DNA of 64,000 bases, taken from positions 201,662-265,661 of the forward strand of contig QPMI01000116.1 in the NCBI GenBank assembly GCA_004431415.1. The letters are read 5' to 3'. Below the pieces are notes generated by a model, which saw only the letters and a list, made by a program, of their open reading frames with translations, searched no databases and had not been told where the DNA came from. Every line of letters begins with the position of its first letter. The first letter of the stretch is position 1. Source of the stretch: Cyanophora paradoxa CCMP329 (taxonomy: Eukaryota > Plantae > Glaucophyta). Made by a program: the position numbers and the translations under genes. Positions 53,101-64,000 of this stretch are shown piece after piece.

Positions 53101-54716
53101 ACGTGGCCTGCGGCCGACTTGGACGGAGGTCTGCACGACAGTATCCTGAGTGTCCACATTTTGAAGTTTGTTGGCGTACTGAATCTTGATCTGAGAGCCA
53201 GGAGGTCATGGAAACGTCAACGGCTGCACACAGCTGCAGTTCTCATGAGGAAATGGAAGTATCGCACGGTGTACGTCGCCGAGCTTCCCGCGCTGATCGA
53301 GTTCACTATTGATGCAACGGAAAATACCAGCCGACCACCTAAGCCGAGCTTGTAAGCAAACTCCGAGGCTCTCATATTTGAGCCGCGCTTGCGCGCGTTC
53401 ACCCGCAGTGGAGGCGGAAAAAGAGTCCAGCGCGGGCTGGCCCGCGCCCCCGGGAGGGGCCAGCGTCGCCACCAGCTGGTCCGCGGCGTTACGAACCTCG
53501 ATGGCGTAGCTCTGGTAGCCCCCTGTTGCGACGCTCAATGCGGCACGGGCGGCCCCCGAATCAGGAGGAAGCACGCACGGAACACTCCATAGGTCTCCGA
53601 CGTCCACACCAGCTCCATCTTGGCCCCGTTCCAGTACGTGTTGCTCGAGAAGAGCGGCACAGGCGGCTGTGCTCCAAGCCCGATGGTGAGCCTGCCCGGG
53701 TTTCGCGTCAGCCAGCTGCAGTGCGCGCCTTCAGAGAATCGGGGATCCGGACTTGTTGCGGGGGAGCGCGATGATCTTCACGCCAGTCAGATCCTTCACG
53801 GTGCTGTCGTCTTTGCGCATGACACGGACGAAGAAGTTGCCTGTGACGGGAACGTTGCCCAAAGAACCTGCCGCGGTCCGCCTCAGCGATTCGCCGGATG
53901 GTAGGAGGATACGCGCGCGCCTGGGATGGTCCACGTCACGCTCTGCTCCCTGAACGCCACGGCGACCGCGACGGGATCCTGAATCCCGGCGCGCACGGAG
54001 CCGTCAGGGTTGAGCAGATCGACCTGGACGTCGCCGATCGCCGAGCTCTGCGCGGCGCGGCGTGTCGGAGCTGCTCTGGCTCGGGATCGGAGAAAGAAAT
54101 CGCGCACGATCCAAGTGACCGTCAGCGACTCGAATTCGACGTACTCCGGGAGTGGCGGGTCGAGCACGTTGATGTACTTGCCTGCGGGAAAGGCGTCAGG
54201 CGGAGTTTGGAGACGACTGATTCCCCTTCATGATCAGCTTGGCCTCACCGCTGGGCGTCCAGTCCATCTGCAGACTCATGATCGCGTGGATGCCCGTGTG
54301 CTCGTATAGGTTTTCGGCCAGGAAAGCGTAGCTGAACGATTTCTTCGGGTACCACTGCGCAGATCTCAGTGCCGAGCGGTTTTTTCCCCACGCTGGCCGA
54401 CGCACGGCGAGAAGGGCGAGATCCTTGACGACCCACGCGTCGACCCAAAAGATCGAGAGGAGAGCGTCTCGCTCGTTGCCGGCCGGACGCACGTCGATTA
54501 TGATCTGGACTCGCAGTTCGGCCATACGGTCGGCGCCAAAAAGCGGAGGAAGAAGAGCGCACGTCGCGAACGTCCATGTAAGCGCGAAGACGCGGGCCGC
54601 GGAAGTACGGCGTCGCGGCGGTCGGGGGATACCTGCACGGCCGGTCGCGGGTGCCGACAAGGACTGCAAGATAGAGAGTCGCAGCGCACCAGACATTCAC
54701 AGCAGGGTCGCTGCCG
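32169..54716 (-). CDS. Giant single-pass cell-surface protein (PKD, Cys-rich, IPT/TIG, REJ, invasin/filamin-like Ig repeats, Ser-Pro stalk, SEA-like, TM); 5' part interrupted by the viral insertion
   Basis: A continuous chain of minus-strand exons separated by short introns. PKD-like motifs ([48 protein letters not shown]) lie at 48.5-50.9 kb and DxCGVCGGD-type Cys repeats at ~48.2-48.5 kb. IPT/TIG repeats ([26 protein letters not shown]) lie at 45-48 kb and 34-36 kb, a REJ-like region ([35 protein letters not shown]) at 41.5-42.7 kb, and Ig repeats with RDRFGN motifs at 39-45 kb. The TM is [27 protein letters not shown] at ~32.55 kb; stop at 32169. Confidence 0.75.
37756..38990 (-). repeat. 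Coding minisatellite: ~27 units of 42/54 bp encoding (SP)5-7-TETP
   Basis: ORF 37636..39222 translates to [14 protein letters not shown] repeats. The DNA unit on the + strand is CTCGGCGTCTCCGTCGGCGAGGGGCTGGGCGACGGGCTCGGG. Confidence 0.95.
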
Positions 54717-54999
54717 ACACATAGTAAAATGCGGAGTTTTAACCCTCGGCTTATCTTAATTGATTTTGTTGATATATCTCGTATATTCTATTTCAATCAA
54801 TCGATAATCTGTGTATATCTTATCGAATATTCATTTATTTCGATTATTTTGTATTCTTTTCGATATTTTATCGTAAATTTCTCTTATTTTCCGATTAGTC
54901 TTACTGAGTCTATCGATAATCTGTATATATTTCCGAATAATATAACTGAATCTCAATTAGATCTTGCCTCTGGTTAAAACTCCGCATTTTACTATGTGT
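54717..54999. repeat. Perfect 28-bp inverted repeat at the element terminus
   Basis: ACACATAGTAAAATGCGGAGTTTTAACC (54717-54744) and GGTTAAAACTCCGCATTTTACTATGTGT (54972-54999). Confidence 0.95.
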
Positions 55000-55251
55000 G
55001 ATTGGTCTAAAAGTTAATTGATTTAATCGATATTATATTCATGTACTTTCTCGATTAAATTTAATTAAATTTAATTCATTTAATCGGAAACATATCGCTA
55101 AACTCGATTAAGATCCATAAAAGATTCATTTGTTAAATAAAACAAATAGATCTCTTATTGAATCCAATCGTAATTATACATGAAATTGATATGTTATTAT
55201 CATGTTTTAATGAGTCTAAGGGGGGACCCTTAGGATTTTTGAAATAATTGG

Positions 55252-55342
55252 GTGTCACAGGTGTCACAGGTCCATCCCATCGAAAGGGAAAATCACTCTT
55301 TATAGGGCTTGAGCTGGGATAAACCTGTGACACCTGTGACAC
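55252..55342. repeat. Perfect 20-bp inverted repeat built from tandem GTGTCACAG units (ori-like)
   Basis: GTGTCACAGGTGTCACAGGT (55252-55271) and ACCTGTGACACCTGTGACAC (55323-55342), with a 51-bp spacer. Confidence 0.9.
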
Positions 55343-55777
55343 ATACCATATTCAGTAAGGACCTCTTATATTGTGAAAATCTCAGTGTTAGTTGGTGTAG
55401 TTGATTCAAAAAATGCATTTTATACTCTGATTCATTGTTATTTCCTGTGAAATTTGAGTCAACTCAACCCACTTAGTCAACCCTTGCATTGAATTCGTAA
55501 CAAAATCCATATACTATTACTACTTTTACGATTAATATGAGTCAACCTTGAGTCCACTTTAATATAAATATTATATAATAGGGGGAATCAAGGGGAGATG
55601 CTTATAAACATATGAATTATTGAGCCTATGATACTTACATCGTCAGGCAGGCCTCGTTAAGAGGATTCCGAATCTGTTTTTGGTTTTGTCACATGATGAG
55701 TTGGTGAAGAGATACATGCATTTTAGTGTTTTGTATGTGGTTTAATGATATGATGTCATAATGCATGGGTTTTCGTC

Positions 55778-55876
55778 AACAGTTAAATGAACAGTTAAGT
55801 GGACACCGTTTCACGATAAACGAGTAGACACTGCCTACTCCCAACAGGTGTCCACTTAACTGTTCACTTAATTGTT
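55778..55876. repeat. 30-bp inverted repeat (28/30 match) whose loop holds two mini-hairpins
   Basis: AACAGTTAAATGAACAGTTAAGTGGACACC pairs with GGTGTCCACTTAACTGTTCACTTAATTGTT. The loop contains GTTT..AAAC and GAGTAG..CTACTC. Confidence 0.9.
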
Positions 55877-61958: not shown

Positions 61959-61973
61959 AGAGACAGAGGAAAA

Positions 61974-62252
61974 ATGCCACTCAGTGAAGCCCAGAAGAGA
62001 GCTATGAAGAGGTACCAGCAAACTGAAAAAGGTAAGGCTCAAATCAAAAAGTTTAACGAAAAAATAGCCACACAGCTAAGAGATCTATATCAAACCGATG
62101 ATACCTATAGAGCCATGAAAATAGCAAGTTCATGTCAGCGAAAGTATGCAGCCAATGCAGTCTGCTTTGTCAAATATTTGTATGATGTCCTTACTCAAAC
62201 AGAGGGAGAAAATCGAAACATGTCTAAATTATTTTTCCCAGCATATTACTAG
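61974..62252 (+). CDS. Small basic hypothetical viral protein
   Basis: 92-aa ORF starting MPLSEAQKRAMKRYQQTEKGK, preceded by the conserved motif. Confidence 0.65.
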   Translation: MPLSEAQKRAMKRYQQTEKGKAQIKKFNEKIATQLRDLYQTDDTYRAMKIASSCQRKYAANAVCFVKYLYDVLTQTEGENRNMSKLFFPAYY

Positions 62253-62382
62253 GCTGGGGATATGCTGTTTATTCGCTGAAATACCAATTCATCCTTTTTG
62301 TATCTGAACCACTCGATATATCATGTGGATAAATTTCGTAGGGATACTTTCTCGATTTCCAACAAAAAATGATTGGGGACCC

Positions 62383-62420
62383 AAAACTACTTAAAGAAAA
62401 TCTTCTATATATATAAAAGG
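62383..62420 (+). promoter_or_regulatory. Conserved element promoter-like motif, copy 3
   Basis: AAAACTACTTAAAGAAAATCTTCTATATATATAAAAGG upstream of the ATG at 62437. Confidence 0.75.
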
Positions 62421-62436
62421 GACCCCAATCGCTGAA

Positions 62437-64000
62437 ATGAACGCCAAACAGACCAAGTTAATCAAATCGCTCGCTAACTGGCTTCGTTCTGATGAGGAAC
62501 TCGCCAAAAACATGATTATCCAGTGAAACCTGACAGCAAAGACCCAGTTTTCAAGCATAAGGGAGGTGCTTGGTCCTGGGAAAAGTATGAGGAAGCGCTG
62601 GCAACTAATCAGTATGTATCTTGGGGCATTCTGCTCTCAGACAACATGATGGTTATTGACTTTGATGATGAGGAGAACTTTGAGAAATTCCGGGATATGT
62701 TTCCTGATGACTTTGATGCCAATCAGCCCATGGCAAAACTAAAAAAGGCTATCATGTCTACTTTAAACGACCTGAGGAGTTCACTAAACTCAAATCACCG
62801 ATAAGGCTCCAGGCTTTAAGGCTTTGAAAAGGTTGACCTGAAACAATCACTGGAACTGGAACTTCTGGATTAATTAATGTTTGTCCAGTGTCAACAAGAC
62901 CTGGGTAATTGCTCCATGGGATGATACCTGTGATTTCAATGAGCCTACTGATGAGTTTAAAAAGTGGATTGCAGAGAACTATATCTATAAGAGTGAGTAT
63001 ACTGCTAATGCTACCTCACATGATGCATTGAAAAGAGTATTCTTAAAGAGCTGGTGGATATGGGCTTTATGCATCCCAATATAATCTCTCAAACTGAACT
63101 GGGCTTTAACTTTGATGCTGCTAATAAGGGACTTAATTGCCCATGCTGCAATGGTCCCATGAATCGAATAACTGGTATGTTATGAAAGCCAAAGGAGAAG
63201 ATAAAAAGTATATTGTGTCCAGCTACAGTGGCAATTGCAAAAAACGATTTATCTTCATTGGAATGCAATCTGATATCTTCAATCTCATTGATTCCGCTGG
63301 TTCTGGAGGCGCTCATTATGATGTCAGTCTTGTGTGCAAAGAGGTCTACAACATACTTGGAGATACTCCAAAAAGTCATGGTTCAAACTCAATACTGATA
63401 CTGGGATTTGGGAGCATGATGACACAAACCAAAAGATTTACCTAGACATAGTTGCCTTGTTGTCCCTCAATACCTTGGCAGGGCTGTGCATTATAGCCAA
63501 AGAGCTTTGAAGGATGAAGAGAATAGAACAGCTTTCGAAGAGAAATCGAAAACATTAATTTCTATTGCCAAAAATCTTAAACAATCAGGATATCGCAAAT
63601 CCCTTCTGACTGATCTGCTCCCTCTGCTGAATGATGATGAATTCTATGAAAGATTGATACAGTTCCATATGTAATTGGATTCGATAATGGTGTATTTGAT
63701 CTGACAACTATGACTTTCAGAAAGGGGAAACTGGAAGATATGGTGAGCAAGAGTGTGGGTTATGATTATACTGAGAATGTAGACCCCAAGAAAGTAGACC
63801 ATCTCAATCAGATTTATAGAGAGATTGTAGATGATCCAGCAGAGCGAAACTACCTTCTGGCATCTATTGCAATTGCCCTCAGTGGATCAACAAAATCACA
63901 GAAGTTCTACATGTGGACTGGTGCTGGTGCAAATGGTAATCACTTGTTCAGGAATACTGCAAACAGATTCAGGGGCTTATTATAGCCCTCTCGAAATATC
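62437..64000 (+). pseudogene. Bifunctional primase-polymerase (Prim-Pol) fused to D5-like SF3 helicase, multiply frameshifted, truncated by the window end
   Basis: Prim-Pol motifs PVKPDSKDP, WGILLSDNMMVIDFD and KTKKGYHVYFKRP. D5_N-like IGFDNGVFDLTTMTFRKGKLEDMVSKSVGYDY. Start of Walker A at FYMWTGAGANG (~63905-63940). Confidence 0.85.

What the first reader, a model, noticed from the sequence alone, without database searches (positions are those of the whole stretch)
54690..64000. Endogenous Polinton-like virus apparently integrated inside a coding exon of a giant host surface-protein gene
Seen: host minus-strand coding sequence reads ...[19 protein letters not shown]... right up to 54716, with no in-frame ATG, signal peptide or acceptor AG before the AT-rich terminus begins at 54717. 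Established: an rve integrase plus protein-primed PolB defines Polintons/Mavericks and related integrating viruses, which make 5-6 bp TSDs. Inference: this is a young insertion that splits a >22 kb receptor gene, so the gene's 5' exons and a TSD should lie beyond the far end of the element.
Basis: partly seen in the sequence, partly recalled or inferred. Interest (0 to 1): 0.8.

Follow-up and report, generated by a model that had tools for sequence, protein, structure and literature searches.

The report
Proofreading-less polinton splits giant algal gene
A multi-copy, virus-like Polinton element has inserted into the middle of a coding exon of a giant membrane-protein gene of the alga Cyanophora paradoxa, likely knocking the gene out; such insertions are known from other protists, and the unusual part is a DNA polymerase that has lost its proofreading motifs and likely works with a neighbouring primase-helicase.

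Summary
Confirmed. The element starts at 54717. Single-copy contigs in 3 of 3 DNA runs cross the junction unchanged. A contig from another run shows the far end: the same terminus beside a perfect 6-bp target duplication (CTGCCG) and host sequence reading LTIQLRTCG. An intact 7,603-aa Cyanophora paradoxa paralogue reads LTIQLRTCG-NDPAVNVWYPP there. So the cut lies inside a coding exon, and about 1,900 residues lie beyond the element.

The element carries an rve integrase, a protein-primed PolB, a primase-D5 helicase and a 283-nt terminal hairpin. Capsid genes lie outside the window and were not testable.

Exon insertions by rve viruses (13 of 22 EMALE sites) and PLVs in this alga (366 capsid genes) are published. 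The new feature is the polymerase: ExoI and ExoII are lost and about 93 residues are deleted, shared with one 48%-identical relative, while 117-118 of 120 homologues keep these motifs. The scan noted other hairpin-ended viruses in this genome, but not this element.

The parts
32169..54716 (-). 3' three quarters of a giant intron-rich host gene (about 60 introns, about 6,240 aa): PKD, IPT/TIG, filamin and Big_1 Ig-like domains, a repeat stalk at 37.6-39.0 kb, one C-terminal transmembrane segment
   Evidence: Gene model; Pfam; strongest hydrophobic 19-mer at residue ~6096; 50-63% identity to paralogue P0125 residues 1938-7602
54690..54716 (-). Remnant of the interrupted coding exon (G-S-D-P-A-V-N-V-W), followed by a 57-nt GT-AG intron
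   Evidence: Paralogue reads LTIQLRTCGNDPAVNVWYPP; the far-side flank reads LTIQLRTCG in this register
54711..54716 (+). Left copy of the 6-bp target-site duplication CTGCCG
   Evidence: X16 record 2 shows its reverse complement next to the terminus; 6 of 6 match, a 7-bp duplication does not; the 6-mer occurs at 89 of 109,432 host sites
54717..54999 (.). Element terminus (5'-ACAC...) forming a 283-nt fold-back: 28 perfect pairs between 54717-54744 and 54972-54999
   Evidence: z about -10 and -11; 0 of 200 shuffles each; the same start at 54717 beside other flanks in X16 and X22 and in X19
55252..55876 (.). Two further mirror-repeat blocks in the non-coding end (55252-55342 and 55778-55876)
   Evidence: I2, I3
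56356..57741 (-). rve (DDE) integrase, 461 aa, intact; D126, D188, E224
   Evidence: Pfam rve E 1.4e-4, below the curated cut-off; PHROG transposase E 2e-10; triad invariant in 4 of 4 aligned proteins; homologue P0003 passes the rve cut-off
57745..60988 (-). [quoted passage not shown] Polymerase motifs A, B and C intact; exonuclease motifs lost and about 93 aa deleted. The frame is broken in this sequence near 58125 and 60858
   Evidence: model pLDDT 86.7, best PDB match phi29 polymerase E 2e-12; P0004 (1,083 aa) resembles all three pieces
61100..61917 (+). Cys/His-rich plus coiled-coil ORF, in two frames here; likely one gene; no family assigned
   Evidence: contigs match 61081-61596 with 0 substitutions and 1 gap; Atlas hits under 0.8
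61974..62252 (+). Small basic ORF, 92 aa, no family assigned
62437..64000 (+). Primase-polymerase / D5-type SF3 helicase gene, in several frames here, cut by the window end
   Evidence: Pfam D5_N E 1.8e-8 above cut-off; PHROG primases E 2e-11; N-terminal polymerase/primase match only E 0.037
61058..62420 (+). Three copies of an AT-rich promoter-like word just ahead of the ATGs at 61100, 61974 and 62437 (61058-61096, 61925-61954, 62383-62420)
   Evidence: (D2, D7, D10)

Best explanation
This is one end of a multi-copy Polinton-type element that sits inside a coding exon of a giant single-pass membrane-protein gene of Cyanophora paradoxa between two copies of a 6-bp target duplication; it was likely inserted by its own rve integrase, likely inactivates the gene, and is likely an endogenous virus whose capsid genes lie beyond the window. 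Shown: the junction, the terminus, the duplication, the coding register on both sides, the integrase triad, and the loss of exonuclease motifs. Inferred: the integrase made a 6-nt staggered cut (established for rve integrases); about 1,900 N-terminal residues, including the hydrophobic leader, are now separated from the ectodomain and anchor; in a likely haploid alga this would be a null allele, perhaps tolerated because an intact paralogue exists. Predicted for replication: the pPolB primes at the ACAC end through a terminal protein, cannot proofread, and relies on the neighbouring primase-SF3 helicase for unwinding, as proposed for mavirus. The terminal fold-back would cap or prime single-stranded intermediates.
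For: Junction contigs at single-copy depth (37, 121, 108) with 0 differences in 3 of 3 DNA runs that cover the host side. Far-end contig: 6 of 6 duplication letters, chance 8e-4 per flank, at most 4 host flanks seen. Its translation matches the paralogue in 9 of 9 residues, and it ends GGC-AG as the window's Ser requires, not the paralogue's Asn. P0124 (C. paradoxa, EukProt) is 100% identical to the window's residues 29-169. Long element contigs lie at about 9-29 times host depth. ExoI D is D in 118 of 120 homologues but K here and Q in P0004; HN-x3-YD is in 118 of 120 and KGxYPY in 117 of 120, and all three are absent from the window and P0004. The FID-to-YGLDP distance is 32 aa in both, against 122-231 in 109 of the other 119 where it could be measured. 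The deletion region is gap-free in an X19 contig (record 23). Window and P0004 group at SH-aLRT 100 (quick tree). Published: rve makes 5-6 bp duplications (PMC12220804, PMC8547959); exonuclease loss goes with helicase gain (PMC11161782); C. paradoxa is more likely haploid (PMC6704402).
Against: No capsid, ATPase or protease gene is in the window, and the middle of the element was not seen. No contig meets the 31-letter bridging rule (27-28 letters at the near end, 30 at the far end). Without the paralogue, composition models preferred non-coding or acceptor readings by 3-12 log units and by 7 units on the far flank. This copy shows many 1-nt frame breaks; 9 of 11 tested lie in homopolymer runs (expected 18%), which suggests assembly error, but contigs drop rare variants, so decay is not excluded. 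The pPolB-helicase partnership rests on adjacency in one copy; P0004's neighbours could not be fetched. Elements with two replicases can be tandem or mosaic (10.64898/2026.10.13.758929). Both exonuclease-less rows are long branches.
Confidence: 0.78

Rival explanations
1. The insertion is as described, but the element is a capsid-less self-synthesising transposon (transpoviron-like replication-integration module), not a virus.
For: No structural gene in the 9.3 kb seen. Capsid-less pPolB + DDE units are described (10.64898/2026.10.13.758929, passages; PMC13215967). L001, the one context fetched for an integrase relative, gave no Pfam capsid hit in the 5 of its ORFs scanned.
Against: The window ends inside the helicase gene, so absence here means nothing. 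C. paradoxa holds 366 capsid genes (PMC10120064 Table S4). The pPolB is not the S1H-fused transpoviron type.
Confidence: 0.14
2. The 9.3 kb is a mosaic. An rve + pPolB unit sits next to an unrelated primase-helicase element, or the primase-helicase has replaced a decaying pPolB, so the exonuclease loss is decay rather than compensation.
For: The two modules face opposite ways. Depth differs between 56-60 kb and 61-64 kb (summed depths, rough). Replicase turnover and double-replicase elements are published and were noted elsewhere in this genome.
Against: Polymerase motifs A, B and C are intact, and the same clean deletion stands in P0004 at 48% identity, so the exonuclease-less enzyme has been kept for a long time. 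No second terminus lies between the modules. One promoter-like word serves both sides.
Confidence: 0.2
3. The host gene starts near 54.5-54.7 kb (ATG 54696, 54577 or 54525), or the element hit an intron's 3' splice site, so no coding exon is split.
For: Those ATGs and a CGGCAG acceptor-like word exist; composition models scored several such readings above the coding-exon one. The public stub P0124 starts at 54577.
Against: Nine far-side residues and DPAVNVWYPP are conserved in the intact paralogue, which has 1,937 more residues upstream. The signal-like stretch after ATG 54696 is matched or exceeded by 8 of 70 intron read-throughs.
Confidence: 0.03
4. The junction is an assembly chimera between a host contig and a repeat.
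For: Contigs carry only 27-28 element letters; the element is a high-copy repeat with signs of consensus error.
Against: Three runs give the same junction at single-copy depth. An independent contig gives the matching far end with a perfect duplication in coding register.
Confidence: 0.02

Closest known systems
Maverick/Polinton elements (pPolB + rve-INT; 10.1101/2023.08.22.554363, PMC12220804)
   Same: pPolB closest to metazoan Polinton enzymes (Elysia, Oculina, Saccostrea among named hits; 34-42% identity, E about 1e-90, shared endonuclease VII-like insert); rve integrase; 6-bp duplication; identical termini; low-GC multi-copy insertion.
   Different: Exonuclease motifs lost, whereas the survey of 20,702 + 1,331 integrase-linked pPolBs reports them conserved in all taxon groups. 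Separate primase-SF3 helicase. Termini read AC rather than the AG recalled for Polintons. 283-nt terminal fold-back.
Mavirus and EMALEs of Cafeteria burkhardae (PMC8547959, PMC11161782)
   Same: rve + exonuclease-deficient pPolB + SF3 helicase; low-GC element in a GC-rich protist; insertion into host exons (13 of 22 sites); short duplications.
   Different: [quoted passage not shown] Here most of the exonuclease fold still aligns to Polinton enzymes. Capsid type unknown. Mavirus pPolB was not compared directly.
Palindrome-ended virophages and PLVs of Halocafeteria seosinensis (10.64898/2026.07.28.741278)
   Same: [quoted passage not shown]
   Different: The palindromes shown there are 52 nt and go mostly with non-pPolB replicases; here 283 nt with a pPolB.
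Tlr1/PLV/transpoviron pPolB-S1H fusions (PMC11161782; PMC5499653, listing only)
   Same: Exonuclease lost with helicase gained.
   Different: Those fuse an SF1 helicase to a palm-only polymerase; here the helicase is SF3, on a separate and oppositely oriented gene.
Endogenous PLVs of Cyanophora paradoxa (PMC10120064 supplement)
   Same: Same host species; 366 capsid genes, about 7% of the genome estimated viral.
   Different: That survey lists capsid genes. Whether this family carries one of them was not testable, and the rows read do not describe this insertion.

Membership tests
Polinton/Maverick | [quoted passage not shown] | tested here: met
   PF03175 E 1e-12 above cut-off; motifs A, B, C intact; model matches phi29 polymerase
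Polinton/Maverick | Retrovirus-like (rve) integrase with DDE triad | tested here: met
   D126, D188, E224 invariant in 4 of 4; Pfam hit below cut-off, homologue above it
Polinton/Maverick | 5-6 bp target-site duplication | tested here: met
   6 of 6 letters at the far end
Polinton/Maverick | Terminal inverted repeats of hundreds of bases | tested here: inconclusive
   The far end matches the near end over the 30 letters the contig holds; the full length was not seen
Polinton/Maverick | Conserved ExoI-III proofreading motifs in the pPolB (typical of the family) | tested here: not met
   family statement
Polinton/Maverick or PLV | Double jelly-roll capsid, penton, packaging ATPase, protease | not testable with these tools
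   Window ends at 64000; no genome held; no contig with this element in viral or metagenome collections
Mavirus-like virophage / EMALE | rve + exonuclease-deficient pPolB + SF3 helicase | tested here: met
Mavirus-like virophage / EMALE | Mavirus-type pPolB | tested here: inconclusive
   All 120 listed hits are long Polinton-type enzymes by motif; no mavirus sequence was in hand for a direct test
Mavirus-like virophage / EMALE | Virophage-type capsid; dependence on a giant virus | not testable with these tools
   Outside the window; needs infection experiments
Transpoviron / Tlr1-like | pPolB fused to an SF1 helicase | tested here: not met
   The pPolB ends just before the integrase; no helicase domain in it or in P0004

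The most novel reading that the evidence does not exclude
This family is a third, independent case of a protein-primed polymerase giving up proofreading while gaining a helicase. It is caught at an intermediate stage: a Polinton-type enzyme whose exonuclease fold is still mostly there but catalytically dead and partly deleted, paired with a separate primase-SF3 helicase and a long terminal fold-back. Because the family is still spreading in a culturable alga, it would allow a direct test of the proposed exonuclease-helicase trade-off and of a mutator lifestyle in endogenous viruses.
Probability: 0.45. Interest if true: 0.55.

Novelty: new variant of a known kind. Interest (0 to 1): 0.38.

Why it matters
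The insertion is a base-resolved natural knockout of a roughly 8,000-residue surface protein by a Polinton-type element, with both junctions and the duplication seen. It shows that these elements cost C. paradoxa real genes, and it explains why the public annotation has only a 152-aa stub here. The class of event is known. The polymerase matters more. Polinton pPolBs are reported to keep their proofreading motifs, and loss was known only in mavirus and in Tlr1/PLV fusions. A separate lineage with the same loss beside an SF3 helicase would be an independent data point for the compensation idea of PMC11161782, and a bench comparison with a proofreading relative is simple.

Tried and rejected
No whole genome is held, so the middle of the element could not be read. 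Searches for the element elsewhere found nothing: pPolB in viral contigs, integrase in metagenome contigs, the 28-nt terminus in viral contigs. No RNA holder was listed. Four runs guessed to be RNA had no contig of this gene on 47000-54715 (one 38-nt, 5-mismatch piece in X22 was unrelated); this is no evidence on expression. It hints only weakly that X16 record 2 is a transcript rather than DNA. An empty-site allele was not seen as a branch at 54716 in 3 DNA runs, but contigs drop rare variants. Composition-based tests of the gene start were indecisive or pointed the wrong way. A motif regex that I wrote with the first domain in mind matched only that domain and was discarded. Four weak HMMER hits (P0126-P0129) were set aside as repeat-rich; only P0124 and P0125 were used. 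The 21-kb-spaced inverted repeat at 6537/27645 was checked as a possible second element and rejected (short repeat in two introns). The Atlas gave no lead for ORF 61372-61917. The ExoIII regex was too strict (77 of 120) and one ExoII column was offset by one, so I used the ExoII regex and the length measure. The careful tree did not finish; the quick tree used 46 of 121 rows and has no mavirus row or root. Earlier scan notes held nothing on this element.
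Full report
Verdict. A Polinton-type element begins at 54717 and splits a coding exon of a giant host gene. Both junctions and a 6-bp target duplication are now seen. This kind of event is published. The less ordinary feature is the element's polymerase.

The junction. GC drops from 64% to 28% across 54716|54717 (300 nt each side). In three DNA runs (X1, X2, X12) one contig covers 52000 to 54744 or 54743 with no difference from the window, at depths 37, 121 and 108, so it passes from host DNA 27-28 letters into the terminus without a branch. 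That is under the tool's 31-letter bridging rule, but a contig must stop once its words are shared by many copies. The fourth run laid, X19 (another species label), holds only element pieces at depth 2-4, one starting at 54717. Long element contigs lie at about 9-29 times host depth, so the family is multi-copy; depth is only a rough guide.

The far end. I laid four runs guessed to be RNA on 47000-54790. X16 record 2 (380 nt) is 349 letters of GC-rich sequence absent from that stretch, followed by the terminus. Its last six flank letters are CGGCAG, the reverse complement of the window's flank CTGCCG. This is what the other end of the same insertion must look like if the duplication is 6 bp; 7 bp does not fit. 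The 6-mer occurs at 89 of 109,432 host sites, and at most four host flanks were seen; the one in X22 differs, so the site is not a fixed target. In the register of the window's exon the printed flank reads LTIQLRTCG.

Coding exon or not. A self-trained gene model gives 61 exons and 6,236 aa from 54716 to a stop at 32169 without any frameshift. It has PKD, TIG, filamin and Big_1 domains and its strongest hydrophobic segment near the end. Sequence alone did not settle the start. There is a CAG at the junction and ATGs at 54696, 54577 and 54525. A HMMER search with exons 3-4 gave 6 hits. P0124 is a 152-aa C. paradoxa model, 100% identical to residues 29-169 of my model, so the host is C. paradoxa and the public annotation starts a stub at ATG 54577. 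P0125 is an intact 7,603-aa C. paradoxa paralogue. It reads LTIQLRTCG-NDPAVNVWYPP: nine of nine far-side residues, then the window's exon. The contig ends GGC-AG, which fits the window's Ser and not the paralogue's Asn. The cut is therefore inside a conserved coding stretch, and 1,937 residues of the paralogue, with a hydrophobic leader near residues 62-78, lie upstream of it.

Age. The duplication is perfect. The first 3,300 modelled residues align to the paralogue at 62% over 3,206 positions. A refinement of the first 38 introns improved four doubtful ones while keeping the frame: three became canonical GT-AG introns and one became coding. Other mismatches look like retained in-frame introns or mis-set splice sites by my reading and were not all re-tested. 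About ten copies match 61081-61596 with no substitution. This points to a recent insertion as the first lesion, but gives no date. All DNA runs may be one strain.

The element. The integrase (56356-57741) is intact, with D126, D188 and E224 invariant in 4 of 4 aligned proteins; its Pfam rve score is below the cut-off. The pPolB (57745-60988) hits PF03175 above cut-off, and its model (pLDDT 86.7) matches phi29 polymerase best. A D5-type primase-helicase starts at 62437; the primase-polymerase call for its N-terminus is weak (E 0.037) and partly rests on recalled motifs. The first 283 nt fold back on themselves with 28 perfect pairs that close at the terminal base. The element's coding part is CpG-poor (0.26 against 1.31 in the host gene), which fits the methylation of repeats reported for this alga (PMC12344493, passages). 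This copy has many 1-nt frame breaks. Of the 12 indels shown (51 more were not shown), 11 are letters missing from the window, and 9 of these 11 lie in homopolymer runs against 18% expected. Assembly error is more likely than decay but is not proven. No capsid gene is in the window, and the rest could not be fetched.

The polymerase. A search gave 1,031 hits, and the best 120 were examined. The nearest, P0004, is 48% identical; the others are 34-42%, and the named ones are from molluscs and corals. The ExoI aspartate is D in 118 of 120 but K here and Q in P0004. HN-x3-YD is in 118 of 120 and KGxYPY in 117 of 120; all three are missing in the window and in P0004. The stretch from FID to YGLDP is 32 aa in both, against 122-231 (median 125) in the 109 others where it could be measured. 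Polymerase motifs A, B and C are intact. An X19 contig crosses the deletion point without a gap, so it is a family trait. The two enzymes group at SH-aLRT 100 on long branches in a quick tree of 46 of 121 rows, without mavirus and without a root.

How it likely works. The integrase cut the exon with a 6-nt stagger and repair duplicated the site (established for rve integrases: PMC12220804, PMC8547959). The gene is split into a leader-bearing quarter and a promoterless three quarters. C. paradoxa is more likely haploid (PMC6704402, passages), so this would be a null allele, and the intact paralogue may buffer it (inference). The element is predicted to replicate with a terminal-protein-primed, non-proofreading pPolB helped by the SF3 helicase. 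PMC11161782 (passages) proposes that pairing for mavirus and, with an SF1 helicase, for Tlr1-like PLVs, as independent losses. The fold-back may cap or prime single strands, as suggested for Halocafeteria elements (10.64898/2026.07.28.741278, passages). The main rival is a mosaic of two replicases (10.64898/2026.10.13.758929, passages).

What is known. Of 22 EMALE sites analysed, 13 lie in exons (PMC8547959, passages). C. paradoxa carries 366 viral capsid genes (PMC10120064, passages and rows of supplement file 2, which was cut when stored). A survey of 20,702 + 1,331 integrase-linked Polinton pPolBs reports conserved exonuclease motifs in all taxon groups (10.1101/2023.08.22.554363, passages). 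Searches and passages of PMC12721341 and PMC13215967 showed no description of an exonuclease-dead enzyme of this type or of this insertion; PMC5499653 was seen as a listing only. The library is incomplete, and bioRxiv supplements, which were closed, may list this family. Earlier scan notes gave the species lead and two papers and describe other hairpin-ended viruses in this genome; none covers this element.

Scores. Insertion inside a coding exon: about 0.95. Whole best explanation, including capsid genes and helicase partnership: 0.78. Novelty: new variant of a known kind, on the strength of the polymerase. Interest 0.38.

Noticed in passing
window 61058-61096, 61925-61954, 62383-62420: A shared AT-rich word (ACTTAAAGAA...TCTATATATA) lies 6-25 nt ahead of three ATGs, rather close for a host TATA box. 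It contains the TCTA core recalled for the CroV late and mavirus promoter; an earlier scan note (e1-10416723) describes a similar word in another element of this genome.
   Followed up: partly
window 54717-56355 versus 56356-64000: CpG observed/expected is 1.19 in the non-coding end but 0.26 in the coding part of the element; the end seems to escape or resist CpG loss.
   Followed up: no
window 55252-55342 and 55778-55876: Two mirror-image blocks of short doubled words in the element's end; some copies skip 286 nt around 55737-56050. Earlier notes read such blocks as helicase origins.
   Followed up: partly
window 39329-39628 and 40518-40817; 37621-39000: The host gene holds a recent internal duplication (300 nt, 94% identical) and a long 42/12/30-nt tandem array encoding a stalk. 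The P0125 model translates the matching array in another frame than my model.
   Followed up: no
window 6537-6686 and 27570-27699: A short AAGCTT-rich repeat occurs in opposite orientation inside two unrelated host genes, apparently in introns; possibly a small mobile element.
   Followed up: partly
run X22 record 8: A 3,339-nt contig ends in the same terminus after about 3.1 kb of other sequence: a second insertion site, possibly also read through by a transcript.
   Followed up: no
L001 289-11014: An IMG/VR contig with the distant integrase relative P0003 also encodes a 432-aa ORF that looks capsid-like by eye (no Pfam hit), a 1,356-aa polymerase-helicase-like ORF (no Pfam hit) and a ribonucleotide reductase small-subunit-like ORF at 4425-5390 (by eye).
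   Followed up: partly
window 884-3220: An F-box / leucine-rich host gene on the + strand (Pfam F-box-like E 7e-6).
   Followed up: no
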